Assembly (NCBI RefSeq): GCF_024502345.1
Contig: NZ_JALDNN010000001.1
DNA from: Escherichia coli
Lineage (GTDB): Bacteria; Pseudomonadota; Gammaproteobacteria; Enterobacterales; Enterobacteriaceae
Strand: one strand, 5' to 3'
Length of the DNA stretch: 64,000 nt
The position numbers and the translations under genes are program-made. Below the pieces are notes generated by a model. The model ran no database searches. It was not told where the DNA came from and saw only the letters and a program-made list of their open reading frames with translations. Positions 1,727 through 57,913 of the stretch are shown piece after piece (positions within the stretch are counted from its first letter, which is position 1; every line of letters begins with the position of its first letter).

Positions 1727-4540
1727 ATGCCAATGGAGAGCTGTACGCAAATGAACGCCGTAGAAATTGAACAAGCCATCACGGATCTTGCAGAGCAACC
1801 CTTTGATCCTATAGAGTTTCCTTATGCTTTTCTTGAAGCCTTTGGTAACAAGGAAACGACTGTCAAACGCTTGCGCGCCGGTGCATCAAACAAATCCGAC
1901 TTGGGCGGTGTTCTCCAGAGCAATAATATTCACATTCTGACCTGCGAAGCAGGGACTGTGACTCAGATGTTGGCCGCGCTCAAGGCTAGCCCTGCGACAA
2001 CTAAAGCCAAGGCGAAGTTCATCCTGGCTACAGATGGCAAAGATTTCGAAGCTGAAGACCTCGTTAGCGGTCAGACTGTCGCTTGCGCCTTTAAAGACTT
2101 CCCAGATCACTTCGGCTTTTTCTTGCCATTAGCAGGCATTAGCACAGTTCGTCAGATTTGTGAGAACTCCTTTGACATTCGGGCCACTAGCCGGCTGAAT
2201 CGTCTGTATGTCGAGTTGTTGAAAGATAACCCTACCTGGGGGACGGCGGAGCGACGTCATGACATGAACAAATTCATGACTCGGCTGATCTTTTGTTTTT
2301 TCGCTGAGGATACTGACATTTTCGTGGGTAAGGGACGCTTTACTGAAACCGTTGCGCAGATGAGTACAAGAGATTCGTCGAATACGCATGAAGTTATCGC
2401 TACCTTGTTTCGTGCCATGAACACCAGTAACAAAGATAGAGCCGCCGCTGGCATCCCGCGCTGGGCCAATGAGTTTCCTTATGTCAACGGACGCTTGTTC
2501 TCTGGGAGTAATGATGTACCACTGTTCAGTAAGATTGCACGGTCTTATTTGCTCCATGTGGGTAGCCTTGACTGGACCAAGATTAATCCGGATATCTTTG
2601 GCTCGATGATTCAGGCAATTGCCGAAGACGAAGAACGCGGAGAGCTGGGGATGCATTACACCAGCGTACCCAACATCTTAAAAGTTTTGAATCCACTATT
2701 TCTGGACGACCTGCGCGCAAAGCTGGATGAGGCGGGTGACAATCCGCGTATGTTGCTTAACCTGCGTAAGCGCATTTCCCACATCCGTGTGTTCGACCCA
2801 GCGTGCGGTTCTGGTAACTTTTTGGTTATCGCGTACAAGGAAATGCGTGCCATTGAGGCCGAAATCAACAAGCGGCGTAATGAGCCAGATCGCGCCTCGG
2901 ATATCCCACTTACCAACTTTCGCGGGATTGAACTAAGAGATTTCCCGGCAGAGATCGCCCGCCTTGCGCTTGTTATCGCTGAGTACCAATGTGATGTACT
3001 GTACCGTGGGCTGCGGTTGGCCTTGGCTGAGCTTCTTCCGTTACGCAACGAAAATTGGATTACCTGTGGCAATGCACTACGGCTCGACTGGTTAAGAATT
3101 TGCCCGCCGACAGGAACAGGTGTGAAATTACATGGCGATGACTTGTTTGGATCTCCGCTTGATCAGGCAGAGATCGACTTTGAGAATGAAGGCGGAGAGA
3201 CATACATTTGCGGTAACCCACCATACCTTGGTTCAAAGTGGCAGACGGATGAACATAAAGCTGATCTTGGCACAATCTTTTCTGGTCGCGTGAAAAATTG
3301 GAAATCGCTCGATTATGTTGCTGGCTGGTTCCTGAAAGCCGCTGACTATGGTAGCCAGACAAGTTCCCAGGCTGCTTTTGTTGCCACTAATTCAATCAGC
3401 CAAGGGCAGCAAGTGTCGATTCTGTGGCCGGAAATATTCAAGGCAGGACAAGAGATTAGTTTCGCTTACACGAGCTTTAAGTGGTCGAACCTCGCTACTC
3501 ACAACGCCGGGGTCACAGTTGTTATCATCGGAATTTCTAACTGTGTAGGAAAGTCGCGACGCCTCTTTTCGGCTGGAGGAGACAATGGTGCGACGACGTG
3601 TCGTGAGGTGGAGCGCATCAACGCCTATTTGATCGCTGGCCCTAACATCATTGTGGAGGGGGACAGTTGTCCAGCCGACAGTCTTGCAACGATGCAGTTC
3701 GGTAACCACCCGTACTATGGTGCATCACTGATCTTTTCGAGATCTGAAGCACAGCAGATGATGTCTGTCGATCCGCGTACGGCGCGTTTTATTCGCCCAC
3801 TATATGGCTCCCAAGAGTTCATTTCCGCTGTGCCACGAGCCTGTCTATGGATTAACGACGATGAGGCTGACGAAGCGGGGACGATTCCTCTGATAGCTGA
3901 GCGTATGAGCGCCGTAGCAAGTGCTAGACGTGCAAAAAAACAAGACAAGGCAGCCCAGAAACTGGCTAAGACTCCATATCGCTTTCGCGACCAGCAGACA
4001 TCTACGAATCATATTCTTGTGGTTCCTCGAGTCAGTTCAGAGAACCGTCCTTGCTTGCCGGTTGGATTACTTGACTCTGACTCTATCGTTCAAGATCAAG
4101 CATTCGCCCTTTACGACGCTCCTCTCTGGAACCTCGCCATCATAGCGAGTCGCCTGCATCTAGTTTGGATCGCCACGGTTTGTGGAAAGTTAGAGACACG
4201 CTACCGCTATTCAAACACCCTCGGCTGGAATACTTTCCCGCTCCCAACACTCACTGAGAAAAATAAGGCAGACCTCACGCGCTGTGCAGAGGATATTCTT
4301 CTGACTAGGGAGCATCACTTCCCTGCAACCATTGCAGACCTTTATGACCCCGAGAAGATGCCAGACGACCTGCGTATTGTGCACGAGCGTAATGACGAAG
4401 TGCTTGAGCGTATTTACATTGGGCGCCGCTTTAAGAATGACACAGAGCGGCTTGAGAAGCTGTTTGACCTTTATACTAAGATGGCCGCTTCAACTGCATC
4501 GGGCAAAAGCAATAAACGTAAAGTGGGAACCAATGCATGA
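1727..4540 (+). CDS. MmeI-family (type IIG/IIL-like) N6-adenine DNA methyltransferase with target-recognition region; N-terminal nuclease motif apparently degenerate
   Basis: 937-aa ORF. SAM motif I FDPACGSGNFLV, catalytic motif IV GNPPY, and MmeI/PglX hallmarks FPYVNGRLF, HYTSVPNILKVLNPLFLDDL, FVATNSISQGQQVSILWP, RYRYSNTLGWNTFP, LYDPEKMP. Alternative start at 1751 (MNAVEIEQ). Confidence 0.85.
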   Translation: MPMESCTQMNAVEIEQAITDLAEQPFDPIEFPYAFLEAFGNKETTVKRLRAGASNKSDLGGVLQSNNIHILTCEAGTVTQMLAALKASPATTKAKAKFILATDGKDFEAEDLVSGQTVACAFKDFPDHFGFFLPLAGISTVRQICENSFDIRATSRLNRLYVELLKDNPTWGTAERRHDMNKFMTRLIFCFFAEDTDIFVGKGRFTETVAQMSTRDSSNTHEVIATLFRAMNTSNKDRAAAGIPRWANEFPYVNGRLFSGSNDVPLFSKIARSYLLHVGSLDWTKINPDIFGSMIQAIAEDEERGELGMHYTSVPNILKVLNPLFLDDLRAKLDEAGDNPRMLLNLRKRISHIRVFDPACGSGNFLVIAYKEMRAIEAEINKRRNEPDRASDIPLTNFRGIELRDFPAEIARLALVIAEYQCDVLYRGLRLALAELLPLRNENWITCGNALRLDWLRICPPTGTGVKLHGDDLFGSPLDQAEIDFENEGGETYICGNPPYLGSKWQTDEHKADLGTIFSGRVKNWKSLDYVAGWFLKAADYGSQTSSQAAFVATNSISQGQQVSILWPEIFKAGQEISFAYTSFKWSNLATHNAGVTVVIIGISNCVGKSRRLFSAGGDNGATTCREVERINAYLIAGPNIIVEGDSCPADSLATMQFGNHPYYGASLIFSRSEAQQMMSVDPRTARFIRPLYGSQEFISAVPRACLWINDDEADEAGTIPLIAERMSAVASARRAKKQDKAAQKLAKTPYRFRDQQTSTNHILVVPRVSSENRPCLPVGLLDSDSIVQDQAFALYDAPLWNLAIIASRLHLVWIATVCGKLETRYRYSNTLGWNTFPLPTLTEKNKADLTRCAEDILLTREHHFPATIADLYDPEKMPDDLRIVHERNDEVLERIYIGRRFKNDTERLEKLFDLYTKMAASTASGKSNKRKVGTNA

Positions 4541-6582
4541 GCAACAAGATTAGATCTGTACCGTCAGTTTCTGTTACCTACTCACGCAACGGAGCATCGA
4601 CCAAGGCTAATTCTCTTGGGATGCGTCCTATGCAAGAAAGGGCTTATGAGAAGCGCGGAGAACAATATCTTCTCATAAAGTCGCCGCCCGCCTCTGGCAA
4701 GAGTCGTGCGCTGATGTTCGTCGCACTCGATAAACTCGCAAACCAGGGGATCAAACAGGCAATCATTGTCGTGCCGGAAAAATCTATCGGCGCGAGCTTC
4801 AACGATGAACCGCTATCGCAGTTTGGATTCTGGGCTGATTGGCATGTTGAACCTAAGTGGAATCTGTGCAACGCCCCCGGTAACGACAACGGCGGCAAGG
4901 TAAAATCTTTCGGCTCTTTTCTTGAAAGTAGCGACAAGGTGCTTGTTTGTACACACGCAACCTTTCGCTTCGCGGTCGATGCCTACGGTGTAGAGGCGTT
5001 TGACGATCGCCTGATCGCCGTCGATGAATTTCACCATGTGTCCGCTAACCCGGATAACAAGCTTGGTCAGCATCTGGGACAGTTCATTGAGCGTGACAAG
5101 ACGCACATCGTGGCCATGACCGGCTCCTACTTCCGGGGAGATGCGGAAGCCGTTTTGGCTCCTCAGGATGAGTCTAGGTTCGATACCGTCACCTACACCT
5201 ACTACGAACAACTCAACGGTTACGAATACCTCAAACAGCTTGATATCGGATACTTCTTTTATAGTGGATCATACATTGATGACATCCTCAATGTCCTCGA
5301 TCCTGACAAGAAAACGATTATCCATATTCCCAACGTCAATTCGCGCGAGAGTACGAAGGATAAAATTAAGGAGGTGGAGCACATTCTGAGCGAGCTTGGC
5401 GATTGGCAAGGTGCGGATCCTACGACTGGTTTTCAGCTAGTCAAGCGCCCCGATGGCCATGTGTTGCGTATTGCTGACCTGGTGGACCCAGCCAGTCAAG
5501 GCAAGATTCAGGAAAGCCTCCGAGCTCCAGAAATGAAGACAGACCGTGACTATGTAGACATCATTATTGCACTTGGTATGGCGAAGGAAGGTTTCGACTG
5601 GATCTGGTGCGAACATGCGCTGACTGTTGGCTACCGTGCCAGCCTGACTGAGATCGTGCAGATTATCGGTCGCGCTACTCGCGACGCGCCGGGTAAAACC
5701 CGCGCGAGATTTACTAACTTGATCGCCGAGCCCGACGCTGTAGAGGGCGCAGTAACTGAGGCAGTCAACGATACCTTGAAAGCTATCGCGGCGAGCCTGT
5801 TGATGGAACAGGTACTGGCTCCGCGCTTCGAGTTCAAGCCCAAGAATCCTGAAATCGGTCCGACTCCAGGCTTTGATTATGGTGATGGAGGATATGACCC
5901 GGATAGCTGCAATTTTGGTGTTAATGAGCAGACAGGGACGTATCAAATCGAGATTAAGGGACTTGCCGAGCCTAGGAGCAAAGAGGCGGCACGTATCTGC
6001 CAGGAAGATTTAAACGAAGTGATCGCGGCCTTTGTGCAGGATAAGCCCGCCATCGAACGAGGCCTGTTCGATGAAGAGCTGATCCCTGAAGAGTTAACAC
6101 AGGTTCGTATGGGTAAGATCATCAAAGAAAAGTATCCTGAACTTGATGCTGAAGATCAGGAGGCTGTACGTCAGCATGCTATCGCCGCCCTTAACCTCAC
6201 GCAGCAGGCCAAGCGTCTTGCTACCGGTGAAAACGATGGGACGCTCAATACTGCTCTTATTGACGGAGTGCGTCGCTTTGCAATGGATGTGCGCGATTTA
6301 GACATAGACCTTATCGACCGCATCAATCCCTTTGGTGAAGCCTACGCTATCCTTGCTAAGACGATGAGTGAAGACAGTTTGAAGCAGGTCGCGGCGGCCA
6401 TCTCGGCCAAGCGTACTTCGATCACGCCTGAAGATGCCAAGGTGATCGCCAAGCGTGCCGCTGAATTCAAACGTGAACGTGGGCGCCTCCCATCGTTAAC
6501 TTCGCTGGATGCTTGGGAAAAACACCTTGCTGAAGGTGCAGCCGCGTTTATGCGTTTTAGGGCGGAGGGACGTTATGAGTAA
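4537..6582 (+). CDS. SF2 DExH-box helicase with ~280-aa C-terminal extension of unknown function
   Basis: 681-aa ORF. Walker A PPASGKS, motif II VDEFHH, motif III MTGSY, motif VI QIIGRATR. Start ATG overlaps the methyltransferase stop (ATGA at 4537-4540). Confidence 0.8.
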   Translation: MSNKIRSVPSVSVTYSRNGASTKANSLGMRPMQERAYEKRGEQYLLIKSPPASGKSRALMFVALDKLANQGIKQAIIVVPEKSIGASFNDEPLSQFGFWADWHVEPKWNLCNAPGNDNGGKVKSFGSFLESSDKVLVCTHATFRFAVDAYGVEAFDDRLIAVDEFHHVSANPDNKLGQHLGQFIERDKTHIVAMTGSYFRGDAEAVLAPQDESRFDTVTYTYYEQLNGYEYLKQLDIGYFFYSGSYIDDILNVLDPDKKTIIHIPNVNSRESTKDKIKEVEHILSELGDWQGADPTTGFQLVKRPDGHVLRIADLVDPASQGKIQESLRAPEMKTDRDYVDIIIALGMAKEGFDWIWCEHALTVGYRASLTEIVQIIGRATRDAPGKTRARFTNLIAEPDAVEGAVTEAVNDTLKAIAASLLMEQVLAPRFEFKPKNPEIGPTPGFDYGDGGYDPDSCNFGVNEQTGTYQIEIKGLAEPRSKEAARICQEDLNEVIAAFVQDKPAIERGLFDEELIPEELTQVRMGKIIKEKYPELDAEDQEAVRQHAIAALNLTQQAKRLATGENDGTLNTALIDGVRRFAMDVRDLDIDLIDRINPFGEAYAILAKTMSEDSLKQVAAAISAKRTSITPEDAKVIAKRAAEFKRERGRLPSLTSLDAWEKHLAEGAAAFMRFRAEGRYE

Positions 6583-7753
6583 TTCTGATTTAGACGATTT
6601 GGCGGCAGAACTTGCTGAATTTGCACCACCGGAGAAGAAAAAAGGACGTCCAGCCAGCGAGGAACGCATCATCGCAGGTTTTGAGGAAATCCAGCGCTTC
6701 GCTGACCAACATGGACGTGCGCCGCAACACGGCGAAGAGCGTGAGATCTTTGAGCGCCTCTATGCAGTGCGGCTCGACCGGCTACGCAGTCTCCCAGACT
6801 GCCGTGCCTTGCTAGAGCCGCTGGATCATCAAGGCTTATTGGCTGGAGGGGGTGATGTAGCGGAGTCAGCGGACGAAATTATCGATATCGATAATTTGGC
6901 TGCCGAACTGACGGATGTTTCCAGCGAGGATGATATCACAGTCTTGCGTCATGTTCGTGCTAGCGCCGAAAAGCGTGCTGTACAAGGGATCGCGGATCGC
7001 AAGCCGTGCGAGGATTTTGATACATTCAAACCGCTATTTGAACAGGTGCGCAGTGATCTAAGTTCAGGGTTAAGAGTGACCCGACCTTTTGGACAGTATG
7101 CAACGATTGAAGTGGGCCATTGGTTCATCCTGGATGGTCAAACGGCTTATGTGGCTGAGGAAGGTGAAGAGTTCGATTCTCCACAGGGGAAGAAAGATGC
7201 TCGGCTGCGTGTCATTTATTCGAATGGTACAGAAAGTAACCTGCTTCGGCTGTCATTAGTTCGTGCTTTGTATAAAGACGAAACAGCACGTCGAATTACC
7301 GATCCAGACATGGGGCCTTTATTCAGCGATGCTCTAGAAGAGAGCGATCTAGAAAGTGGCACCATTTATGTATTGCGTTCGCTATCAGATAACCCTTATG
7401 TGGCCGAACATCGTGATGTTATTCACAAGATTGGTGTGACTGGCGGCAAGGTCGAGACTCGTATTGCTAATGCTGAACACGATTCCACCTATCTGTTGGC
7501 GAAGGTAGAGGTGGTCGCTTCATACAAACTCGCAGGTATCAACCGCACCCGGATGGAAAACCTGTTTCACAGGTTGTTTGCACCCGCAAGGCTTAACATT
7601 ACCATTAACGACCGTTTCGGCCATCCAGTACAGCCCGAGGAATGGTTTCTCGTTCCGTTATTCGTTATCGATGAGGCTGTTGCACGTATTAAGGATGGTA
7701 GCATCATTGGGTATGTTTATGACCCCATGTCTGCGAAACTGGTGAAGGCATAG
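6575..7753 (+). CDS. T5orf172/MUG113 (GIY-YIG superfamily) domain protein, candidate nuclease, with acidic N-terminal domain of unknown function
   Basis: C-terminal GTIYVLRS...HKIGVTGGKVETRIANAEH...PEEWFLVPL fits the T5orf172 GIY-YIG-like pattern. GGAGGGA Shine-Dalgarno 6 nt upstream of ATG 6575; start overlaps the helicase stop (taa 6580-6582). The ORF track's upstream ATG at 6509 lacks an RBS. Confidence 0.65.
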   Translation: MSNSDLDDLAAELAEFAPPEKKKGRPASEERIIAGFEEIQRFADQHGRAPQHGEEREIFERLYAVRLDRLRSLPDCRALLEPLDHQGLLAGGGDVAESADEIIDIDNLAAELTDVSSEDDITVLRHVRASAEKRAVQGIADRKPCEDFDTFKPLFEQVRSDLSSGLRVTRPFGQYATIEVGHWFILDGQTAYVAEEGEEFDSPQGKKDARLRVIYSNGTESNLLRLSLVRALYKDETARRITDPDMGPLFSDALEESDLESGTIYVLRSLSDNPYVAEHRDVIHKIGVTGGKVETRIANAEHDSTYLLAKVEVVASYKLAGINRTRMENLFHRLFAPARLNITINDRFGHPVQPEEWFLVPLFVIDEAVARIKDGSIIGYVYDPMSAKLVKA

Positions 7754-7779
7754 TGAAGTGACACACTGAATTTGGCCAC

Positions 7780-7812
7780 CTGTTCTGAGGTGAGTATATC
7801 ACCTCAGAACAG
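7780..7812 (+). terminator. Perfect 14-bp-stem hairpin just downstream of the three-gene cassette; no U-tract
   Basis: ctgttctgaggtga / gtata / tcacctcagaacag read directly. Lack of a T-run makes intrinsic-terminator function uncertain; could be an RNA stability or protein-binding element. Confidence 0.3.
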
Positions 7813-7868
7813 CACAGGAATAAAAGATACTGATTTGAATGTACCTATACTTTGCGATGTGAGGATCA

Positions 7869-8660
7869 ATGAATAGTAACCTGACCAAGATATGTTACCG
7901 TGGTGAGACTGGTGAAAGTGATCTAAGAACGTTGATACTTGGTGAGATTCTATATATCTCACTACGAGATGTTTTAATCACGCTGAATAAAGAAAATAGA
8001 GAAATCAACGCTGATTACACAGTAAAATCGATGGCTGGAATAATCAGGGCGCAATTACAGGCTCTTGACCCTGATGAGTATATTACTACAGATGCTGAAA
8101 ATGGTGTTTTTGAAGGTCAGAAAGAGATCTTCGTCACCCAGCCAGGTTTGTATCGAGTCATGTCAAGTGACCGAAGCGCTGCCGGTAAGCGCTTTCAAAA
8201 ATGGTTATTTCATGAAGTCATACCATCATTGACTAAGCATGGTGTATACCCGCCTCCGCCAGAAGCGAAAGGTTCAGCCCTTGCACAAATGGCTGAGATA
8301 CTTGCTCAAAATTCGCGAGCACTTGCTGACGCAATCCATAAACACGAAAAACTGGCCGAAGATGTCTCACAGGTTAAAGGTAAAGTTGCCAACGTTGAAA
8401 GCCGTCTGGAACTGTTAGAATCAGGTCCTTCCACTGTAACTGAAGATATGCATACTCTTGATAGCCGTCTCGCTTATTTGGACATGAGCATGGAAGAAAA
8501 GCATACCACCGAGACATTAGCCTGGTGCGAGAATATTTCTGTTCAAAATAACAGGAAGGTGATTCGCAAGGACTGTAGGGAGAATTCGCTCTTTACAACG
8601 CAGACTATCGACGAAGCAATCGCTATCATGACTGAAAGTGGAAAAATCACACCAAATTGA
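7869..8660 (+). CDS. Bro-N (KilA-N/antirepressor-like) domain protein with coiled-coil C-terminus
   Basis: 263-aa ORF. N-terminal ...DLRTLILGEILYISLRDVLITL...GLYRVMSSDRSAAGKRFQKWLFHEVIPSLTKHGVY resembles the Bro-N fold pattern. GAGGAT RBS upstream. Confidence 0.55.
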   Translation: MNSNLTKICYRGETGESDLRTLILGEILYISLRDVLITLNKENREINADYTVKSMAGIIRAQLQALDPDEYITTDAENGVFEGQKEIFVTQPGLYRVMSSDRSAAGKRFQKWLFHEVIPSLTKHGVYPPPPEAKGSALAQMAEILAQNSRALADAIHKHEKLAEDVSQVKGKVANVESRLELLESGPSTVTEDMHTLDSRLAYLDMSMEEKHTTETLAWCENISVQNNRKVIRKDCRENSLFTTQTIDEAIAIMTESGKITPN

Positions 8661-8716
8661 AGATCCTGGGGTTCAGATTATCTGCTGGCTATCTTATTGA
8701 GCTCTGACGTAAAATA

Positions 8717-8739
8717 GGCCTTCCCACAAAGAGAAGGCC
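8717..8739 (-). terminator. Intrinsic terminator hairpin for the minus-strand YfjJ-like gene, between convergent genes
   Basis: ggccttc / 9-nt loop / gaaggcc, followed on the minus strand by tatttt. Confidence 0.45.
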
Positions 8740-8748
8740 ATTGCCGAC

Positions 8749-9375
8749 TTACAGATCGATTTGGCTACAGCCGAAGTTACGGTCTCCTTCACCAAACACT
8801 TTGCTTTCGACTTTGGTGAGGTAATCCAGTCGGGTTAACAGCGCTTGGTAGTTATGCTGGAAGTCAGCATTATTGGTATCCAGCACGTACTTACAGTTGT
8901 CAGGAAAATGGACCAGACCAGGGTGATCATCCAGTTTCAGTCCCAGGGCGCTGTACCACGCTCCCGTAATCATCCCTCTCAGGTTATCGTGCTGATCGTA
9001 ATCCCCGAGGTGGTAGTAAGCGTCTTTGTTGAACAACAGGCAAATGTGGTAGTGGCATTTACCTGACTCAGAATACTCTTTCGCCCATATAATAAATAAA
9101 GGGCAACGGTAGATGCGTTTACCTTCACGCTCCTTACGGGTACGGTCAGCCTCCAGTTTAGCTCTGAGGGAATCACGCATTCGGGATATCACCCCTGGTT
9201 CAAGATTAGGGAAACAGCAGATATTGTCTCCGTTATCGACTATCTTCGGATAATGCAGATCGACACGTACCGCCGTTAACCTGGGGTAACGGTTAGTCAA
9301 ATAACATAATAATTTTTTAATCTTGATCTGATATTCGAGGATATGTACTCCATGAGTACCTTGATATGTTTTCAT
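8749..9375 (-). CDS. YfjJ/YagK-family (inovirus Gp2-like) prophage protein
   Basis: 208-aa ORF resembling the YagK/YfjJ family of CP4-type islands; in the island-backbone position expected from K-12 CP4-57. Confidence 0.65.
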   Translation of the reverse strand: MKTYQGTHGVHILEYQIKIKKLLCYLTNRYPRLTAVRVDLHYPKIVDNGDNICCFPNLEPGVISRMRDSLRAKLEADRTRKEREGKRIYRCPLFIIWAKEYSESGKCHYHICLLFNKDAYYHLGDYDQHDNLRGMITGAWYSALGLKLDDHPGLVHFPDNCKYVLDTNNADFQHNYQALLTRLDYLTKVESKVFGEGDRNFGCSQIDL

Positions 9376-9397
9376 AATATATATCTGTATTTGGTCC

Positions 9398-9418
9398 TAC
9401 GGTCTATAGCAGACCGTA
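9398..9418. promoter_or_regulatory. Perfect palindrome TACGGTCT-ATAGC-AGACCGTA upstream of the YfjJ-like gene; candidate operator
   Basis: 8-bp arms with 5-bp spacer, ~25 bp upstream of the start codon at 9375. Confidence 0.35.
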
Positions 9419-9509
9419 CAGGGATGCCATACAGGCAGGGCTATTCCTGGTCACTGTTGTCGGTATATACTGGTATCAGATCTTAGTACGGATATACTGA
9501 TCTGATTAC

Positions 9510-9542
9510 TACTCTTACTGGTGAATACAGGTAGTAAGAGTA
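9510..9542. promoter_or_regulatory. 10-bp perfect inverted repeat TACTCTTACT-N13-AGTAAGAGTA; candidate protein-binding or recombination site
   Basis: Read directly; lies between the recombinase-like gene stop (9647) and the YfjJ-like gene. Confidence 0.3.
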
Positions 9543-9646
9543 CACAATGCCATTATATAATACCTATCCAACATCTAAATTTGAGACGAAGGTAGCCCCA
9601 GCCTGTGATGGCTGTTAAAAAGTTACTCTGCAATTAGCTTCTGGAA

Positions 9647-10216
9647 TTAACCGATGATTCCGTTATTCCAGTGCCGCTTCACAGTCGATAAACTGATACT
9701 CAATTTCTTTGCAATCTCAGCCTGAGTAAATCCACCTTTCTTAAGTATTGTGATATCACGTCGGTATTTGCTTCCCTCCTTTCGTCCTAATTTCTTCTTA
9801 ACATGTCGATATCGGCTTTTAGTTGATTTCAGATTGTGAATGTCAATCGTATCCTGACGAGCAATCAAAAAAGACAAGCAACTTTCAGCAGAAGGCTCTA
9901 TCCTTGAAGCTGGATGGTAGCTGTAGATAAAAATTTCTTTTTGAAGGCAAAAAAATAAAATATTCTGTAAGTCCTCCACAGTTCTGCCAAGACAGCTTAG
10001 ATCTGGAATGACAAGCGTGTCCTGCCGGTTCATTTCATGATGAATCAATTGTCTGAGTAAACGTTGCTCTGAAACAACCTCTTTAATATCTACCTGCTCG
10101 ATCACAACATGTTCAGGTAGAATATTAAATTTTTGGCATATCTCAGCAAGTGAGTGATGATCTGTAATGCTTTCTTGCTGTTCGCTACTGCATATGGTGT
10201 AAAAAAATGAACGCAT
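9647..10216 (-). CDS. Serine-recombinase (resolvase/invertase)-like protein with C-terminal HTH, conserved residues partly substituted
   Basis: N-terminus MRSFFYTICSSEQQ matches the resolvase catalytic-serine region and DTLVIPDLSCLGRT the second conserved block; C-terminal GGFTQAEIAKKLSISLSTVKRHW is a Hin-like HTH. The ORF track extends to 10345; start chosen at the internal Met. Confidence 0.55.
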   Translation of the reverse strand: MRSFFYTICSSEQQESITDHHSLAEICQKFNILPEHVVIEQVDIKEVVSEQRLLRQLIHHEMNRQDTLVIPDLSCLGRTVEDLQNILFFCLQKEIFIYSYHPASRIEPSAESCLSFLIARQDTIDIHNLKSTKSRYRHVKKKLGRKEGSKYRRDITILKKGGFTQAEIAKKLSISLSTVKRHWNNGIIG

Positions 10217-10371
10217 CTGATGCACTCCGGTGTCATAAATTATTCTTTGATACCTGAACAATGTCATTTTGTATAAAAAATAACCAAAAATAGAGCGTGA
10301 TTGCCAGCGATACTTTGAGTGGTAAAGTAGTATTTTACCTCTCATAATTGTTTGTCCTTCTTTGTTACCTC

Positions 10372-11085
10372 TTAGGTTCTGCTCTCCTGTGAGTATGGGT
10401 TTATAATGATGTCATCCGGTGCATTAACACGGTTGGAAACATTTGTTTTACGGATCACTGGCAGCATAACCACCATCTCATTGACATGGTAAATATCAAT
10501 CCAACAAACAACCGGATAAGGCATAACAATCCCCTTTCTTCTAAGAACTTCATTTATCCCGAATATAATTAATTGGGATGTTGACAAGAGTAGAGTCTGC
10601 CCGACATCAAAGTAATAATCCTCAAAGGTTGTTCTATGAATAAGAATAATGTTTGAATATCCCAAGACACTTTGATGCTTTACATTAAAATGTCGTTGAT
10701 TGTAAATGTAAATGGCTTTTTCCATATCGTAATTTTCCCTCAGCGAGGATAGCCTTTCACGTATAACTGTTTTTTCATCTTTCCCCATGAATTCATCATT
10801 AGCGTTCAGTTTAAAGTAATCTGTAATTGGGATTTTTAATGGACTCATGATGTTCGTTTTCCAGATTAACGAACAGTATTCTTCCAGAGTCACTTCTTTT
10901 TCACCTCGATTTCGAATAATTCTTTCATTTATAGTGAATCTTAGTAGATCGTTTTTTAGCTCCTTTATTAGCCATTGATAGCGAAGACATTGCTCGAATA
11001 TATGTACCGTCAACGCCACAGAGTCTGATATGACTGAGGAAAGAGATTTATTATTCATCCTGGCATAATGCTCAAGAGTTTCCAT
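10372..11085 (-). CDS. Hypothetical protein, AT-rich orphan island gene
   Basis: 237-aa ORF with no recognisable motif; low GC relative to surroundings. Confidence 0.45.
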   Translation of the reverse strand: METLEHYARMNNKSLSSVISDSVALTVHIFEQCLRYQWLIKELKNDLLRFTINERIIRNRGEKEVTLEEYCSLIWKTNIMSPLKIPITDYFKLNANDEFMGKDEKTVIRERLSSLRENYDMEKAIYIYNQRHFNVKHQSVLGYSNIILIHRTTFEDYYFDVGQTLLLSTSQLIIFGINEVLRRKGIVMPYPVVCWIDIYHVNEMVVMLPVIRKTNVSNRVNAPDDIIINPYSQESRT

Positions 11086-11245: not shown

Positions 11246-11458
11246 TTACTCTATTGCCCGGGTTCGTTGTAAAATCCATTCGTCTATTTCAGCCTCTATC
11301 CAGCCGACAGATTGCAGCCCCAGACGACGTTGTTTCGGGAACGTTGGGTCATAGCGTGGCGATTTCGGATTGATCCAGTCATAGATTGTTGAACGTGACA
11401 AGCCCGTTTTGTCAATTACTGTAGAAAGACGAAGTATTTTAACATTAGATTTGTTCAT
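11246..11458 (-). CDS. alpA: AlpA-family prophage transcriptional regulator (excision activator)
   Basis: 70-aa ORF MNKSNVKILRLSTVIDKTGLSRSTIYDWINPKSPRYDPTFPKQRRLGLQSVGWIEAEIDEWI matches AlpA. Confidence 0.85.
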   Translation of the reverse strand: MNKSNVKILRLSTVIDKTGLSRSTIYDWINPKSPRYDPTFPKQRRLGLQSVGWIEAEIDEWILQRTRAIE

Positions 11459-13620: not shown

Positions 13621-14862
13621 TCAAACAACAAGTTTTAATGCACCGGCACTAGATTCTACCATGCTTCCTTTATCTGCTCTTTTAACAAAATCAGCCCACC
13701 ATTGCATCATCGGCCTACGTTGCTCAAGATAATCACTGCGGTTATAAGCGCGACGTACCTCATTTTTGTCTACATGAGCAAGTGCGGCTTCAATGACATC
13801 AGGAGGAAATCCTTGCTCATTGAGGGCTGTACTGGCGATAGAACGCAAACCATGTGAAACCAGCACTCCCCCTAAACCGGCACGCTTGAGTGCAGCATTC
13901 ACGGTTTGACTGTTCATCGGCTGAGTGGGCTTAATGCGGCTTGGAAAAATAAAATCTCGGCCACCACTGAGCGGCTTCATCATTTCCAGAATAGCCAGAG
14001 CCCCATCAGATAATGGAACGGTATGGTCCCGGTTCATTTTCATTCGGGCTGCTGGAATTTTCCATTCGTTAGCATCAAAATCGATCTCATTCCACCGAGC
14101 TTCTGCGGCTTCTGCGGGGCGGGTGATGGTGAGAAGTTGCCACATGAACAGACACCGCGTAGACAGGCTGATACTGGCCGTACGCATAGTTTGCATCAAC
14201 TGAGGCAACTGATCCGGACGAATACTGGGCATGTTCTTTTTCTGAGGTTTCTCGAAGGCTTTGCCAATATTAACACTGGGAACTGCATCAATCAGGCCCG
14301 TGTTTTGGGCATAAATCATGACTTCATTGATCCGTTGGCAAAGACGGCGGACAGTTTCCAGTGCTCCTCGGGCCTGAACGGGTTGAACGGCTTGAACCAG
14401 TGTATGGGCTTTAATATCTGTAACGCTTACGTTGCCAATTGCGGGAAATATATCTCTTTCAAGCGAACGCCAGATATCATCAGCATAGTCCTCGGTTACA
14501 CTGGCTTTCTTCACATTCCACCAACGCTCGGCAACTAACAAGAAAGTGTTGGTTTTGGCCTCCTGAGAATTTCTTATCTGTTCTTTTTGGTATTCCTGAG
14601 GATCGATTCCTTTTGCCAGTAATACTTTGGATTCAGCTCTGAGCTTACGAGCATCGGAAAGCGAGACAGCAGGATAGGAACCGAAGCTCTGTTTAGTTCG
14701 CTGTTTTGTCAGAGGTCGGTAATAACGGAATTGCCAGAGCTTACTGCCACTGGATTTGATTAGCAGCGTCAGTCCGTCACCATCATACAACTGATAATCG
14801 GCATCTTTAGATTTGGCTGCTTTGATTTCCGTATCCGTTAACGGCTTGGTTTTTCTTGCCAC
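13621..14862 (-). CDS. intA: P4-type tyrosine integrase of a CP4-57-like island (GTG start)
   Basis: 413-aa ORF beginning (M)ARKTKPLTDTEIKAAKSKDADYQLYDGDGLTLLIKSSGSKLWQFRYY, immediately downstream of ssrA on the same strand. Confidence 0.9.
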   Translation of the reverse strand: MARKTKPLTDTEIKAAKSKDADYQLYDGDGLTLLIKSSGSKLWQFRYYRPLTKQRTKQSFGSYPAVSLSDARKLRAESKVLLAKGIDPQEYQKEQIRNSQEAKTNTFLLVAERWWNVKKASVTEDYADDIWRSLERDIFPAIGNVSVTDIKAHTLVQAVQPVQARGALETVRRLCQRINEVMIYAQNTGLIDAVPSVNIGKAFEKPQKKNMPSIRPDQLPQLMQTMRTASISLSTRCLFMWQLLTITRPAEAAEARWNEIDFDANEWKIPAARMKMNRDHTVPLSDGALAILEMMKPLSGGRDFIFPSRIKPTQPMNSQTVNAALKRAGLGGVLVSHGLRSIASTALNEQGFPPDVIEAALAHVDKNEVRRAYNRSDYLEQRRPMMQWWADFVKRADKGSMVESSAGALKLVV

Positions 14863-15044: not shown

Positions 15045-15407
15045 TGGTGGAGCTGGCGGGAGTTGAACCCGCGTCCGAAATTCCTACATCCTCGGTACTA
15101 CATGCTTAGTCAGTCTTTACATTCGCTTGCCAGCTGCGGACGGACACGCCACTAACAAACTAGCCTGATTAAGTTTTAACGCTTCAACCCCAGGCAGGGC
15201 TTCCACGCGATCTCTTTTGGGTTTGACCTCTCTTGATCCCCGTCCTAAGAGCGGAGGCTAGGGAGAGAGGGCTCTAAGCAGGTTATTAAGCTGCTAAAGC
15301 GTAGTTTTCGTCGTTTGCGACTATTTTTTGCGGCTTTTTACGAGGCCAACCGCCCCTCGGCATGCACCTTGGGTTTCGCAAATCCCGTCGAATCCAGAAT
15401 CAGCCCC
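15045..15407 (-). ncRNA. ssrA: tmRNA (SsrA); its 3' end is the island integration site
   Basis: Reverse complement reads GGGGCTGATTCTGGATTCGACGGG...GGGTTCAACTCCCGCCAGCTCCACCA, with the tag-coding region and tRNA-like ends. Confidence 0.95.
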
Positions 15408-31983: not shown

Positions 31984-33144
31984 TCAGGTTGGATCAACAG
32001 GCACTACGTTCTCACTTGGGTAACAGCCCAATACCTTCATTGAACGGGTGATTTCCCCTAACTCTTTCAATGCTTTTTGCATTTCCGCTGATTCAAGATT
32101 GGCCTGAATATCCAGATAAAACATCTCTTCCCATGGATTACCGTGAATCGGGCGTGATTCCAGACGGGTCATAATCAGATTGTGGTTGCGCAGTACCAGC
32201 AACGCTTCAACCAGCGCACCGGCTTGTTGCCCGGTCGCCATTAACAACGTCGTTTTCGCCGGAACCTGATCAGACACGTTAATGGCTTTACGCGCCAACA
32301 CCACAAATCGGGTGAAGTTTTGTCGCTGATTCGCTTCAATCCGCTCCAGTACCTGCAAACCGTACAAAGTGCCGCCAGCTTCGCTTCCCAACGCAGCAAC
32401 ATGCGGTGATTTTGCCTGTGCAACCTTTTCCATTGCCGCAGACGTACTTTCGGTATATTCAATCTTCCAGTGCGGATAACGATTAAGGAATTTGCTGCAT
32501 TGCTGGAATGGCTGCGGATGGCTGTAGACCGTATTGATGGTGGATAAATCAGTCGTGCCGGAGACTAACAAACAATGGTCGATAGTTAACGTCATCTCGC
32601 CAACAATCGACAAGCTGGTATGTTGCAGCAGATCGTAAACGTCATTTATGGCACCGGAGCTGGTATTTTCAATCGGTACGACGGCATAGTCGGCCTGGCC
32701 GGTTTCCACCTGATTAAAAATATCGGCAAATTTGGCGCAGCCACTTTCAATGAATTGCTCAAAGTGACGGGCAGCATACTGGCGCGCCGCAAGATGGGAA
32801 TAAGAACCTTTGGGGCCGAGAAAAGCGATGCGTGCTGAGTGCGGATTAATTTTATTGAGATGTTGTTGGAGCAAAGCCTGCTGAGTTAATACGGAATCTT
32901 CAATGATGAGCTGGAACAGGCGAGTAATGTAATGGGCGTCCAGATGGTGCGCTTTACCGAGCGTAATTAATCTTTCCAGTAAATCGCGTTCACGATCAAT
33001 ATCACGTACCGGGCGATGCGAGAGCAGTTTGGCTTTTCCCACCTCGACGGCCAGTTCGCGCCGCTCTGCGAGTAATGCTAATAATTTTTCATCCAGCGCG
33101 CTGATTTTCTCTCGCAGCGCCAGTAACGGGTTTTCCGATGTCAT
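31984..33144 (-). CDS. pheA: Chorismate mutase / prephenate dehydratase PheA
   Basis: 386-aa ORF. Confidence 0.95.
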
Positions 33145-56578: not shown

Positions 56579-57913
56579 TTACTCTTCTGTCGTTTGCGGT
56601 GGCACGCCCGTTCCGCTTGGTTTACGGCGCTTACCAATATTTTTGGTGTCGCGATGGCGTTTTTTCACCCGCGGTTTCTCTTTCTCTTTAGCTTTTTTCT
56701 TCTCGGCGCGTTTTGCCAGTACTTTCTTCGATGGCTTGCCGGTCTGCTTCTCGCTTGGCGCACGCGTTTTCGGGCGTAACTCATCAATAACGCGAGCTTT
56801 AATCGGCTCTTCAATGTAACGGCCAACCTTGCCCAGCAGCAAATGGTCATGGGCTTCCACCAGCGAAATTGCGGTGCCTTTACGACCGGCGCGCGCGGTA
56901 CGTCCGATACGGTGCAAATAAGTATCGCCACTGCGCGGCATATCGAAGTTAAAGACGTGGCTGACGTCAGGAATGTCGATACCGCGCGCGGCAACATCGG
57001 TTGCAACCAGTACGTTTACGCGACCTTCGGTCAAACGCTTGATCGCTTCGTTACGCTTGCCTTGTACCATCTCACCTTCGAGATAGCAGTTGTTGATGCC
57101 CGCTTCGCGCAGCCAGTTTGCCAGCTCATGCACACGTTCACGCTTACGCACAAACACAATTGAGCGGGTCGCTTCCGGCTGTTTTAACAGATGCACCAGC
57201 AATGCGGTTTTATGTTCCAGGTCATCGGCGCGGTAATACCACTGATGAATTTTTTTGCGCTCACGGGTGGACGGATTGGCAGAAACCTCCACCGGATCTT
57301 CCAGCAGACGCTCGGCAAAGTCCTGAATCGCATCGCCTTCCAGCGTTGCCGAAAAGAGCAGGGTCTGTTTACGCCAGCGCGTTTCGCCAGCAATATGTTC
57401 GATATCCTGAGCGAAGCCCATATCCAGCATACGGTCTGCTTCGTCGAGGATCAGCGTTTCAACCGCGCGGCAATCGAAGTTCTCTTCTTTTATGTATTGC
57501 AGCAGACGTCCGGTCGTGGCGACCACGATGTCCTGATTTTCGCTGAACACTTCCGCGTGGTTCATATAGGCTACGCCGCCGGTGATGGTGGCGATATCCA
57601 GATGCGTATGTTTCGCCAGTTCGCGGGCATGATCGGCCACCTGCATCGCCAGCTCGCGAGTTGGGGTGAGGATCAAAATACGCGGCGGACCGGATTTCTT
57701 ACGTGGGAAATCGAGCAGGTGCTGCAACGCTGGCAGCAGATACGCCGCCGTTTTACCGGTGCCTGTCGGCGCAGAACCGAGTACATCACGGCCATCGAGC
57801 GCAGGCGGAATGGCGGCAGCCTGAATGGCGGTCGGGCGAGTGAAACCTTTATCCTGGAGGGCTTCCAGCAGGCTTTCGTCGAGTTCAAGTTCGGAAAAAG
57901 TCGTTACAGTCAT
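56579..57913 (-). CDS. srmB: DEAD-box RNA helicase SrmB
   Basis: 444-aa ORF with [17 protein letters not shown] motifs and basic C-terminal tail. Confidence 0.95.

What the first reader, a model, noticed from the sequence alone, without database searches (positions are those of the whole stretch)
9376..9646. Repeat-rich intergenic region between the recombinase-like gene and the YfjJ-like gene
The region contains a perfect palindrome TACGGTCT-N5-AGACCGTA (9398-9418), a perfect 10-bp inverted repeat TACTCTTACT-N13-AGTAAGAGTA (9510-9542), and several short ATATACTG/ATCAGATC-type repeats. This density of symmetric sites next to a recombinase-like gene suggests an operator cluster or a recombination site.
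Basis: seen in the sequence. Interest (0 to 1): 0.4.

Follow-up and report, generated by a model that had tools for sequence, protein, structure and literature searches.

The report
Promoter and structured leader of yagK

Summary
There are three perfect inverted repeats of 8-10 bp in 271 bp, against 0.09 expected; 0 of 2000 shuffles reach three.

The spacer lies between yagL-like (9647-10345, -) and yagK-like (8749-9375, -) genes of a CP4-6/CP4-57-type island inserted at ssrA. It has two parts.

1. An 86-bp core (9637-9552, minus strand).
- It carries the sigma-70 promoter TTTAGA-16-TATAAT, which genomic SELEX reported for K-12.
- It is 84-100% identical in islands whose flanking genes are only 62-85% identical.
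- Two boxes sit exactly 51 bp apart in 38 of 42 variants.
- It is followed by a yagK/yfjJ homolog in 68 of 69 occurrences.

2. A leader of about 170 nt (about 9545-9376).
- The 10-bp repeat is a 5'-terminal hairpin. It shows compensatory changes at 5 of its 10 pairs.
- The 8-bp palindrome sits inside a long-range helix that pairs CCUGUAU with the ribosome-binding site. That helix shows A-U/G-C covariation.

No second copy of the repeats exists, and YagL is not a credible recombinase. The best reading is promoter plus translation- and stability-controlling leader RNA (confidence about 0.6). The main rival is an origin or nick site for the HUH protein YagK. This is a new member of a known kind, of moderate interest.

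The parts
8749..9375 (-). yagK-like gene (208 aa), an HUH-nuclease (Rep-like) protein; this is the gene the spacer controls
9647..10345 (-). yagL-like gene (232 aa), a degenerate resolvase-like protein with a C-terminal HTH; it ends 9 nt before the core
   Evidence: In K-12 a Rho-dependent 3' end maps inside the yagL 3' end, about window 9679.
9552..9637 (-). Conserved 86-bp core (promoter module), the most conserved part of the locus
   Evidence: 100% identical to K-12 and 84-97% identical to relatives whose yagK and yagL coding sequences are 62-85% identical. Found in 42 sequence variants. 68 of 69 occurrences are followed by a yagK/yfjJ homolog.
9625..9636 (-). Left box TAATTGCAGAGT, centred near -84 from the predicted start
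   Evidence: AGAGT is invariant in the core alignment. It lies exactly 51 bp from the right box in 38 of 42 variants; the others are 50, 52, 52 and 61 bp.
9599..9614 (-). Small dyad or hairpin CAGCC-ATCACA-GGCTG inside the 51-bp spacer, preceded by a T-tract
   Evidence: CAGTC (a G-U pair on the yagK-sense strand) occurs in most variants, and CTGCC/GGCAG in L016. In the divergent cores L014 (CATTG/CAATG) and L037 (CCAAT/ATTGG), read by eye, an unrelated dyad lies within the spacer at a nearby but not identical offset. Others (L011, L015, L029) show only weak 3-4-bp pairings, some elsewhere in the spacer.
9560..9573 (-). Right box TGTTGGATAGGTAT, filling the promoter spacer directly upstream of the -10
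   Evidence: Consensus TGTnGGAwAGkTAw is kept in all variants, including loci whose YagK is about 40% identical (L045, L046, L050).
9574..9579 (-). -35-like hexamer TTTAGA
   Evidence: Promoter scan. The same TTTAGA-16-TATAAT is listed as an RpoD 'constitutive promoter' with H-NS binding in the K-12 yagK/yagL spacer (PMC3946193).
9552..9557 (-). -10 hexamer TATAAT; the predicted transcription start is about 9545
   Evidence: The start position is inferred (7 nt downstream of the -10) and is not mapped. The 16-bp spacer is due to a TA insertion found only in some sequences of the window/K-12/Mixta clade, not in all of its close relatives; other variants have 14 bp.
9510..9542 (-).
   Evidence: I5. 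On the model-fitted alignment A6, 5 of 10 pairs carry changes on both sides. Over the whole 23-pair H1+H2 model there are 14 such cells, against 5.0 +/- 1.7 in shuffles (0 of 500 reach it). 91.6% of cells are paired, against 24-39% when the partner is slid.
9475..9506 (-).
   Evidence: (I13, D6). The sequence is conserved: 91% of cells pair, with no change on both sides in the outer stem.
9462..9473 (-). Conserved 12-mer CCAGTATATACC; it can pair with the ribosome-binding region or with GTACT of H2
   Evidence: Nearly invariant in 32 of 33 long leaders. It pairs with the SD region in the window's MFE fold and with probability 0.3-0.5 in the window clade only. No covariation.
9425..9437 (-). 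H3: short hairpin UGCC-UGUAU-GGCA, mutually exclusive with the SD-sequestering helix
   Evidence: RNAalifold. 96.8% of cells pair, and the changes are G-U wobbles.
9398..9418 (-).
   Evidence: I11. 91-92% of cells pair. 13 G-U cells arise from changes on one side, and there is no change on both sides.
9429..9435 (-). 5' strand (CCUGUAU) of the long-range anti-Shine-Dalgarno helix
   Evidence: It pairs with 9384-9390; 90.3% of cells pair. Pair 15/71 is G-C in 15 sequences and A-U in 7, with at least two independent switches (L079 against L065; the window clade against the rest).
9384..9390 (-). 3' strand (AUACAGA; AUACAGG in K-12 and relatives), which is the Shine-Dalgarno region 8 nt before the ATG at 9375-9373
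   Evidence: The window alone has AGG changed to AGA at 9384.

Best explanation
The spacer is the control region of the yagK/yfjJ-family HUH-nuclease gene. It works at two levels.

DNA level (9637-9552).
- An 86-bp module carries the yagK promoter, with -10 TATAAT at 9557-9552 and TTTAGA at 9579-9574.
- A left box (TAATTGCAGAGT) and a right box (TGTTGGATAGGTAT, filling the promoter spacer) sit 51 bp apart.
- This fits a helically phased protein-DNA architecture. RNA polymerase probably binds together with a factor that always travels with the module. The best candidates are YagK itself or a host protein.

RNA level (about 9545-9376).
- Transcription yields a 5' untranslated leader of about 170 nt.
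- H1 probably protects the message from 5'-end-dependent decay.
- A long-range helix between CCUGUAU (9435-9429) and the ribosome-binding site (9390-9384) encloses H4 and hides the Shine-Dalgarno sequence.
- The small hairpin H3 competes with that helix. Translation of the Rep-like protein is therefore held low and could be switched.

What is shown and what is inferred.
- Shown: the anatomy, conservation, covariation and fixed spacing; RNA polymerase binding to this spacer in K-12 (from the literature).
- Inferred: the exact start site, the roles in stability and translation, the trigger, and the identity of the factor binding the core.
For: Location.
- Both flanking genes are on the minus strand, so the spacer lies upstream of yagK.
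- The only promoter-like site in the spacer faces yagK. It is the TTTAGA-16-TATAAT that genomic SELEX listed for K-12, and the K-12 core is 100% identical.
- Read-through from yagL ends at a Rho-dependent 3' end just upstream in K-12.

Structure.
- The leader folds better than shuffles: z -3.3 in the window, mean -3.0 over 33 unique leaders.
- H1 has 5 of 10 pairs with compensatory changes.
- The anti-SD helix has A-U/G-C covariation. 90% of its cells pair, against 24-49% when the partner is slid.
- H3 and H4 vary mostly by G-U wobbles that pair only on the yagK-sense strand: 20 G-U against 13 A-C cells, or 20 against 6 without the loop-closing pair. H1 and H2 give 29 against 17.
- The sense strand has the lower z-score in 26 of 33 leaders.
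- H1 starts 0-4 nt from the predicted start in every subfamily.

Core.
- It is more conserved than both coding sequences.
- It is linked to yagK homologs in 68 of 69 occurrences.
- The box spacing is 51 bp in 38 of 42 variants and 61 bp in one, even where the intervening sequence is unrelated.

Exclusions.
- No Rfam family matches.
- No terminator-like hairpin occurs in the spacer.
- No ORF is conserved on either strand.
Against: - The transcription start has not been mapped for this window, and the SELEX evidence is in vitro.
- Most family members have only 14 bp between TTTAGA and TATAAT, so the promoter may be weak or activator-dependent outside the window/K-12 clade.
- H2, H3 and H4 show no change on both sides; they are simply conserved in sequence.
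- The alignments used for the H1 and anti-SD counts were fitted to the model and the sequences are related. The shuffle controls therefore overstate significance.
- A-C mismatches are not rare (17 and 13 cells).
- In the window itself the antisense strand folds as well as the sense strand (z -3.35 against -3.32).
- Predicted pairing of the conserved 12-mer with the SD is seen only in the window clade.
- No trigger for a switch is known.
- The K-12 Term-seq tables searched list no leader-internal 3' ends.
Confidence: 0.6

Rival explanations
1. Origin or nick site for the HUH protein. The core hairpin and/or the leader hairpins extrude as single-stranded DNA. YagK nicks them to start rolling-circle replication or transfer of the excised island, and the same region acts as the autoregulated rep promoter. 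This is the layout seen in geminivirus, circovirus and parvovirus origins and in the double-strand origins of rolling-circle plasmids.
For: - YagK has the HUH fold with invariant HUH and YxxK motifs, so it should have a DNA substrate.
- The core is the only non-coding element invariably linked to it and is more conserved than the gene.
- A small dyad recurs within the 51-bp spacer, with unrelated sequences in the divergent cores L014 and L037.
- G-T wobble on one strand is as compatible with single-stranded DNA as with RNA.
- Many relatives place a DUF3987 helicase-like gene directly upstream.
- Related tmRNA islands in Pseudomonas keep a Gp2-like gene as a core function.
Against: - The helix with the clearest covariation pairs with the Shine-Dalgarno sequence, which makes sense only in mRNA.
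- H1 sits at the predicted 5' end of the transcript in all subfamilies.
- The loops of H1 and H4 are not conserved, so they hold no conserved nick motif.
- No iteron pattern is present.
- The leader hairpins are absent from short-leader relatives that keep the core.
- The core dyad is only 5 bp.
Confidence: 0.15
2. The palindromes are double-stranded DNA operators for island regulators (YagL, AlpA or YagK) that block or roadblock yagK transcription.
For: - H2 and H4 are conserved in sequence rather than by compensation.
- YagL and AlpA are HTH proteins encoded just upstream.
- H-NS binding is reported in this spacer in K-12.
Against: - H1 keeps complementarity while its sequence changes.
- All three palindromes lie downstream of the -10.
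- Relatives with the DUF3987 gene instead of yagM-yagL can carry the same long leader (L010).
- Window and K-12 share a 98-100% identical spacer but have AlpA-like proteins only 12% identical.
- The one-sided changes are biased to G-U on one strand.
Confidence: 0.1
3. The promoter loads an AlpA-type (Q-like) antiterminator. The conserved promoter spacer is an AlpA binding element, and the structured leader is the barrier that modified RNA polymerase reads through.
For: - In P. aeruginosa, AlpA binds GGGACG-N5-GGTA between -35 and -10 of its target promoters and makes polymerase termination-resistant (PMC7969949).
- Here the promoter spacer is the most conserved stretch and carries GGTA next to the -10.
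- An AlpA-family gene lies upstream in the window (PF05930, 1.4e-21).
- Strong Rho terminators silence this operon in K-12.
Against: - Only the GGTA half of the motif is present.
- The same right box accompanies three AlpA-like types that are 12-29% identical.
- No intrinsic terminator occurs in the leader, and no C-rich, G-poor stretch typical of Rho loading.
- No second copy of the right box exists elsewhere in the window.
Confidence: 0.07
4. The spacer is a site-specific recombination or inversion site used by the resolvase-like YagL.
For: Inverted repeats sit next to a gene with faint Resolvase and HTH_7 similarity.
Against: - There is no partner copy of the 10-mer in 64 kb, even with one mismatch (12). 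The 8-mer's other copies are scattered, one of them inside the yagK coding sequence.
- The Resolvase match is below Pfam's threshold and lacks the N-terminal catalytic part.
- No serine recombinase in the PDB matches at E<=1.
- The same leader occurs in loci without yagL (L010).
- None of the 378 E. coli records reported a rearranged orientation, and nearly all hits are single full-length matches.
Confidence: 0.03

Closest known systems
5'-terminal stem-loop stabilisers of E. coli mRNAs (ompA 5' UTR type; from my own knowledge of Emory, Bouvet and Belasco 1992)
   Same: A stable hairpin begins within 0-4 nt of the predicted 5' end of a long untranslated leader. Its structure, rather than its sequence, is conserved (H1).
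   Different: No half-life data exist and the start site is only predicted. H1 is one of four stems, and the leader also sequesters its ribosome-binding site.
Shine-Dalgarno-sequestering leaders (fold-back inhibition in IS10 transposase mRNA, RNA thermometers, riboswitch expression platforms; from my own knowledge)
   Same: A helix pairs an upstream CCU-containing strand with the SD AGG. It is supported by covariation, and a mutually exclusive hairpin (H3) could act as the switch.
   Different: No ligand, temperature or sRNA trigger has been identified. No Rfam family matches. The long-range helix spans about 45 nt and encloses another hairpin.
Copy-control leaders of rolling-circle plasmid rep genes (pT181 repC attenuator, pMV158 repB with RNAII; from my own knowledge)
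   Same: A gene for an HUH initiator is preceded by a structured leader that limits its expression.
   Different: No antisense promoter or terminator for a countertranscript was found on the plus strand. No attenuator-type terminator is present. The element is chromosomal and integrated at ssrA.
Origins of HUH-Rep replicons, where a stem-loop and Rep-binding sites overlap the rep promoter (geminivirus or circovirus intergenic region, parvovirus or AAV origin)
   Same: A conserved non-coding module with a small hairpin sits immediately upstream of, and is inseparable from, an HUH gene whose nearest structural relatives are NS1 and Rep nuclease domains.
   Different: No conserved loop nonamer is present and no iterons. 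The stem is only 5 bp. Nicking is untested.
P. aeruginosa AlpA-dependent promoters (ABE between -35 and -10; PMC7969949)
   Same: A conserved element fills the promoter spacer, GGTA abuts the -10, and an AlpA-family gene is in the island.
   Different: The GGGACG half is absent and no downstream intrinsic terminator exists. The element does not co-vary with the AlpA type.
Serine-recombinase inversion or resolution sites (hix, gix, res)
   Same: Short inverted repeats lie next to a resolvase-like ORF.
   Different: No second site exists, the recombinase is degenerate, and the repeats behave as RNA stems.

Membership tests
cis-regulatory mRNA leader with SD sequestration | Lies between a promoter or transcription start and the start codon, on the coding strand | tested here: met
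   The -10 is at 9557-9552 and the ATG at 9375. The promoter was predicted and reported for the identical K-12 sequence. The start site itself is not mapped.
cis-regulatory mRNA leader with SD sequestration | A helix that includes the Shine-Dalgarno sequence | tested here: met
   CCUGUAU (9435-9429) pairs with AUACAG(G/A) (9390-9384). 90.3% of cells pair in 25 distinct sequences.
cis-regulatory mRNA leader with SD sequestration | Covariation supporting the structure | tested here: met
   H1 has 5 of 10 pairs with changes on both sides. The anti-SD helix has G-C in 15 sequences and A-U in 7 at one pair. H2, H3 and H4 show only one-sided (wobble) changes. The alignments were fitted to the model.
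cis-regulatory mRNA leader with SD sequestration | Measured effect on translation or stability | not testable with these tools
   Needs reporter fusions and half-life measurements.
Known RNA families (Rfam 15) | Covariance-model match | tested here: not met
   No match at E<=1 in 8500-10500 on either strand.
Intrinsic terminator or attenuator | G+C-rich hairpin followed by a U-run | tested here: not met
   No terminator-like site occurs inside 9376-9646. None of the three stems is followed by a T-run.
Serine-recombinase recombination site (hix, gix, res) | Two or more copies of the crossover site bounding a segment | tested here: not met
   The 10-mer occurs only as the two arms at 9510 and 9533, even with one mismatch allowed.
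Serine-recombinase recombination site (hix, gix, res) | Adjacent catalytically competent serine recombinase | tested here: not met
   The Resolvase match is 21.6 bits, below the 23.3 cut-off, and covers residues 95-185 only. No PDB recombinase matches at E<=1.
Double-stranded DNA operator palindromes | Half-site sequence conserved, rather than complementarity alone | tested here: inconclusive
   Not met for H1, where complementarity is kept while the sequence changes. H2 and H4 are conserved in sequence, so binding cannot be excluded.
HUH-Rep origin or nick site | Cognate HUH protein with intact catalytic motifs encoded next to the site | tested here: met
   The HUH and YxxK motifs are invariant and the fold matches HUH nucleases.
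HUH-Rep origin or nick site | Hairpin with a conserved nick sequence, and repeated Rep-binding sites | tested here: inconclusive
   The core dyad loop ATCRCA is conserved within the main group but replaced in divergent cores. No iterons were found. The H1 and H4 loops are variable.
HUH-Rep origin or nick site | Site-specific nicking or replication dependent on the protein | not testable with these tools
   A biochemical or genetic assay is needed.
AlpA/Q-type antiterminator loading promoter | ABE (GGGACG-N5-GGTA) between -35 and -10, with a terminator downstream | tested here: not met
   Only GGTA is present. No terminator is found. The same spacer element accompanies AlpA-like proteins 12-29% identical.

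The most novel reading that the evidence does not exclude
The 86-bp core is a combined origin (nick site) and autoregulated promoter for the HUH protein YagK/YfjJ. It is built like the origin-promoter regions of Rep-encoding single-stranded DNA viruses. The conserved hairpins of the leader double as single-strand DNA signals. Under this reading, the CP4-6/CP4-57-type islands of Enterobacterales (integrase, AlpA, helicase or YagM-YagL, HUH protein) are satellites that replicate or transfer by a rolling-circle mechanism after excision.
Probability: 0.12. Interest if true: 0.7.

Novelty: new member of a known kind. Interest (0 to 1): 0.4.

Why it matters
YagK/YfjJ-type 'inovirus Gp2 family' proteins are uncharacterised. 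Yet they are a core gene of tmRNA- and tRNA-inserted defence islands in Enterobacterales, and related Pseudomonas islands behave as phage satellites.

The work defines three things: the promoter module, its fixed 51-bp geometry, and a leader that hides the ribosome-binding site. That gives concrete handles for asking when this Rep-like protein is made. The 86-bp core is also the obvious first substrate to test for nicking or binding.

It also supplies a candidate new cis-regulatory RNA motif, with 33 unique long-leader sequences, that is not in Rfam.

Tried and rejected
- Rfam search of the region: nothing at E<=1.
- Similarity to phages, including P4-type satellites: none. The plasmid hits are only F' plasmids carrying the K-12 segment. 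This gave no support for a P4 CI-RNA-like immunity leader.
- Second copy of the 10-mer or of the right box in the window: none.
- Iteron idea (YNGTAY motif, five copies in the window leader): only one copy is conserved and the spacing is irregular.
- Rho-loading region: no C-rich, G-poor stretch.
- Countertranscript: no plus-strand promoter or terminator in the spacer.
- Leader peptide or antisense small ORF: no ORF is conserved in length or frame.
- Pairing of the conserved 12-mer CCAGUAUAUACC with the SD: predicted only in the window clade and without covariation. It is kept as a minor possibility.
- AlpA-specific binding of the promoter spacer: weakened because unrelated AlpA types share the same core.
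- My first pattern for the collection scans was off by one base, so one viral and one metagenome scan were wasted. The corrected pattern found 40 loci.
- Plain MAFFT plus RNAalifold on whole leaders missed H1 and H2 because of loop-length differences. Covariance models were used instead.
Full report
**What is there**

The finding covers the 271-bp spacer 9376-9646. Both flanking ORFs are on the minus strand. One is a 232-aa ORF at 9647-10345 and the other a 208-aa ORF at 8749-9375. The segment matches the yagM-yagL-yagK part of cryptic prophage CP4-6 in 376 of 5426 complete E. coli genomes.

The 208-aa protein is a YagK_YfjJ_C (PF11726) protein with E 1e-65. The 232-aa protein has only sub-threshold Resolvase and HTH matches.

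Going upstream along the minus strand from the spacer (rising window coordinates), the genes run: yagL, yagM-like, an AlpA-family gene (11246-11458; PF05930, 1.4e-21), a disrupted IS256, an integrase (13621-14862), and tmRNA (15045-15407). The locus is therefore a CP4-6/CP4-57-type island inserted at ssrA. The best-matching genome annotates a methyltransferase, a DEAD/DEAH helicase, a GIY-YIG nuclease and a BRO-N gene on the far side of yagK.

**Observation check**

- The spacer holds three perfect inverted repeats of at least 8 bp with loops of 3-20 nt.
- Dinucleotide shuffles give a mean of 0.094, and 0 of 2000 reach three.
- A 10-bp repeat appears in 0.5% of shuffles.
- None of the 236 other 271-bp tiles of the window has three.

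**Orientation and promoter**

Because both genes are on the minus strand, the spacer is the upstream region of yagK. The only promoter-like site in it faces yagK: TTTAGA (9579-9574), 16 bp, TATAAT (9557-9552).
- A genomic SELEX study lists exactly TTTAGA-16-TATAAT, with H-NS binding, as an RpoD holoenzyme site in the K-12 yagK/yagL spacer (PMC3946193).
- The K-12 core is 100% identical to the window's.
- In K-12, strong Rho-dependent termination acts on yagM and yagL (PMC9160355).
- A Rho-dependent 3' end maps inside the 3' end of yagL, at about window 9679 (PMC7815308 supplement).

yagK is therefore likely to depend on its own promoter. All three palindromes lie downstream of the -10, in a predicted 5' leader of about 170 nt.

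**Comparative data**

I collected 59 loci encoding YagK relatives from reference genomes. A further 40 came from viral and metagenome contigs through a conserved DNA pattern.

Two upstream architectures exist:
- AlpA, then a DUF3987 helicase-like gene (yfjI type), then the spacer, then the HUH gene.
- An AlpA-like gene, then YagM, then YagL, then the spacer, then the HUH gene.

In both, the spacer begins with the same core of about 86 bp (window 9637-9552).
- 68 of 69 core matches are followed by a yagK/yfjJ homolog.
- After the core comes either a short leader of about 90 nt or the long leader of 170-215 nt seen here.
- The core is 84-100% identical to relatives whose yagK and yagL coding sequences are 62-85% identical. 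The long leader is 61-98% identical.

**The core is a DNA-level element**

It consists of these parts, in order:
- a left box, TAATTGCAGAGT;
- a T-tract;
- a small dyad, CAGyC-N6-GGCTG;
- a second T-rich stretch;
- AAATTTAGA;
- a right box, TGTnGGAwAGkTAw;
- the -10 hexamer.

The distance from CAGAGT to TGTnGGA is exactly 51 bp in 38 of 42 distinct variants. It is 50 or 52 bp in three and 61 bp in one. The 51-bp distance also holds in seven cores whose intervening sequence is unrelated (L011, L012, L014, L015, L028, L029, L037). A fixed length with a one-turn exception points to helical phasing of protein contacts. The left box would sit near -84, or near -94 in the exception.

The right box fills the promoter spacer. 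Most variants have only 14 bp between TTTAGA and TATAAT. Some sequences of the window/K-12/Mixta clade carry a TA insertion that makes it 16 bp. This may explain why the K-12 version behaves as a factor-independent promoter; that link is my inference.

P. aeruginosa AlpA binds an element in the same position, GGGACG-N5-GGTA (PMC7969949). Here only GGTA is shared, no terminator follows, and the same core accompanies three AlpA-like types that are 12-29% identical. Window and K-12 have AlpA-like proteins only 12% identical yet identical cores. The constant partner of the core is therefore YagK itself or a host factor.

**The leader behaves as RNA**

The 33 unique long leaders keep the same series of elements.

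- It starts 0-4 nt after the predicted start in every subfamily.
- On a covariance-model alignment of 27 distinct sequences, 5 of its 10 pairs show changes on both sides. Examples are C-G to G-C at the loop-proximal pair and U-A to C-G.
- Over the 23-pair H1+H2 model there are 14 such cells, against 5.0 +/- 1.7 in shuffles (0 of 500 reach it).
- 91.6% of cells pair, against 24-39% when the partner is slid.

H2 (9506-9475) explains the ATCAGATC and ATATACTG repeats. It is conserved in sequence without compensation.

Both are likewise conserved. Their variation is mainly G-U wobble on the yagK-sense strand.

The most informative feature is a long-range helix between CCUGU(A/G)U (9435-9429) and A(U/C)ACAGG (9390-9384).
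- The second strand is the Shine-Dalgarno region, 8 nt before the ATG.
- The A-U pair of the window clade is G-C elsewhere. L079 and L065 show an independent switch, and L025 is an A-C intermediate.
- On the model alignment 90.3% of cells pair, and that pair is G-C in 15 sequences and A-U in 7.
- This helix encloses H4 and is mutually exclusive with H3, so the leader could switch between SD-hidden and SD-free states.

Further points on the leader:
- Leaders fold better than shuffles (mean z -3.0), and the sense strand scores better in 26 of 33. In the window itself the two strands are equal.
- There is no Rfam match, no terminator-like site and no conserved small ORF.
- The window's own SD is weakened, AGG to AGA at 9384. 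K-12 and all relatives keep AGG.

**What the controlled gene is**

It is therefore probably a nicking enzyme with a DNA substrate. That keeps alive the rival reading that the core, or single-stranded forms of the hairpins, is its origin or nick site. Four points count against this rival for the palindromes:
- the SD-pairing helix makes sense only in mRNA;
- H1 sits at the 5' end of the transcript;
- the H1 and H4 loops are variable;
- the leader hairpins are absent from short-leader relatives that keep the core.

A recombination or inversion site is not supported.
- There is no partner copy of the 10-mer.
- The Resolvase match is sub-threshold and partial.
- No solved serine recombinase matches YagL.
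- The same leader occurs without yagL (L010).

An operator cluster is not supported for H1 and is unproven for H2 and H4.

**Verdict**

The spacer is real, non-random and conserved. The best explanation is the promoter module plus a structured, SD-sequestering 5' leader of the yagK HUH-nuclease gene (confidence about 0.6). The rivals are:
- an HUH origin or nick site (0.15);
- DNA operators (0.10);
- AlpA-type antitermination (0.07);
- a recombination site (0.03).

In kind this is an ordinary regulatory arrangement. The specific module and leader motif appear undescribed: there is no Rfam family, and nothing turned up in the paper searches.

**Limits**
- The transcription start is not mapped.
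- The covariance alignments lean towards the modelled structure.
- The sequences are related, so counts of cells are not counts of independent events.

Noticed in passing
window 9552-9559; compare L004-L009, L020-L026: Some sequences of the window/K-12/Mixta clade carry an extra TA in the -10 region (TATTATATAAT against TATTATAAT). This lengthens the TTTAGA-to-TATAAT spacer from 14 to 16 bp. Some close relatives in the same clade (L064, L068, L091) lack the insertion. It may be what makes the K-12 version a factor-independent promoter.
   Followed up: partly
window 9384: The window alone has the Shine-Dalgarno AGG changed to AGA. K-12 and all 32 other long leaders keep GG. The change weakens both the ribosome-binding site and the anti-SD helix.
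   Followed up: partly
window 11246-11458 against L002 8633-8857: Window and K-12 share a 98-100% identical yagL-yagK spacer and a 98.7% identical yagL, but their AlpA-like genes are unrelated in sequence (12% identity). L010 joins a yfjI-type (DUF3987) upstream gene to a window-type core, leader and yagK. This is mosaic exchange, with a module boundary at the left edge of the core (CTAATT).
   Followed up: partly
window 9475-9482 and 9499-9506: Each arm of hairpin H2 contains a GATC (Dam) site. The two sites are 24 bp apart and are conserved in most long leaders.
   Followed up: no
window 8778-8785, 32526-32533, 57430-57437: The 8-mer TACGGTCT occurs five times in the window, against 0.96 expected (1 of 100 shuffles reaches five). 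One copy lies in the 3' end of yagK, in the codons of the conserved GDRNFG motif, and could pair with the 5' arm of H4. This is probably coincidence.
   Followed up: no
window about 1750-8660 (from the annotation of L001): Beyond yagK lie a class I SAM-dependent DNA methyltransferase, a DEAD/DEAH helicase, a GIY-YIG nuclease and a BRO-N gene. This looks like defence-type cargo, as in other tmRNA islands.
   Followed up: no
window 10372-11085: The yagM-like ORF is 237 aa here against 284 aa in K-12. It is annotated as N-terminally truncated in the closest genome. A frameshifted IS256 lies between alpA and the integrase.
   Followed up: no
window about 9679 (K-12 293252, minus strand): Published Term-seq data place a Rho-dependent 3' end inside the last 35 nt of yagL, about 40 nt upstream of the core.
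   Followed up: partly
L016, L018, L019, L021, L022 (short leaders), about 20-50 nt before the ATG: Short-leader relatives carry a different hairpin (ATATCCCTGTG...CACAGGGATAT). It shows compensatory changes in L021 and L022 (AGTCCTGTG/CACAGGACT). Its 5' arm is also complementary to the SD (AGGGAU or AGAGAU), which suggests the same anti-SD logic with another design.
   Followed up: partly
L012 and L060: Contigs binned as 'Flavobacterium psychrophilum' and 'Bacillota' MAGs carry yagK relatives. L012 has an enterobacterial-type locus (57% identical, with a core). L060 is only 30% identical and no core was detected in it. L012 at least is probably a mis-binned contig.
   Followed up: no
L045, L046, L050 (YagK about 40% identical): The right box TGTTGGATTGGTAw is kept even in this distant group. 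There a CAGAGT lies 74 bp upstream instead of 51 bp.
   Followed up: no
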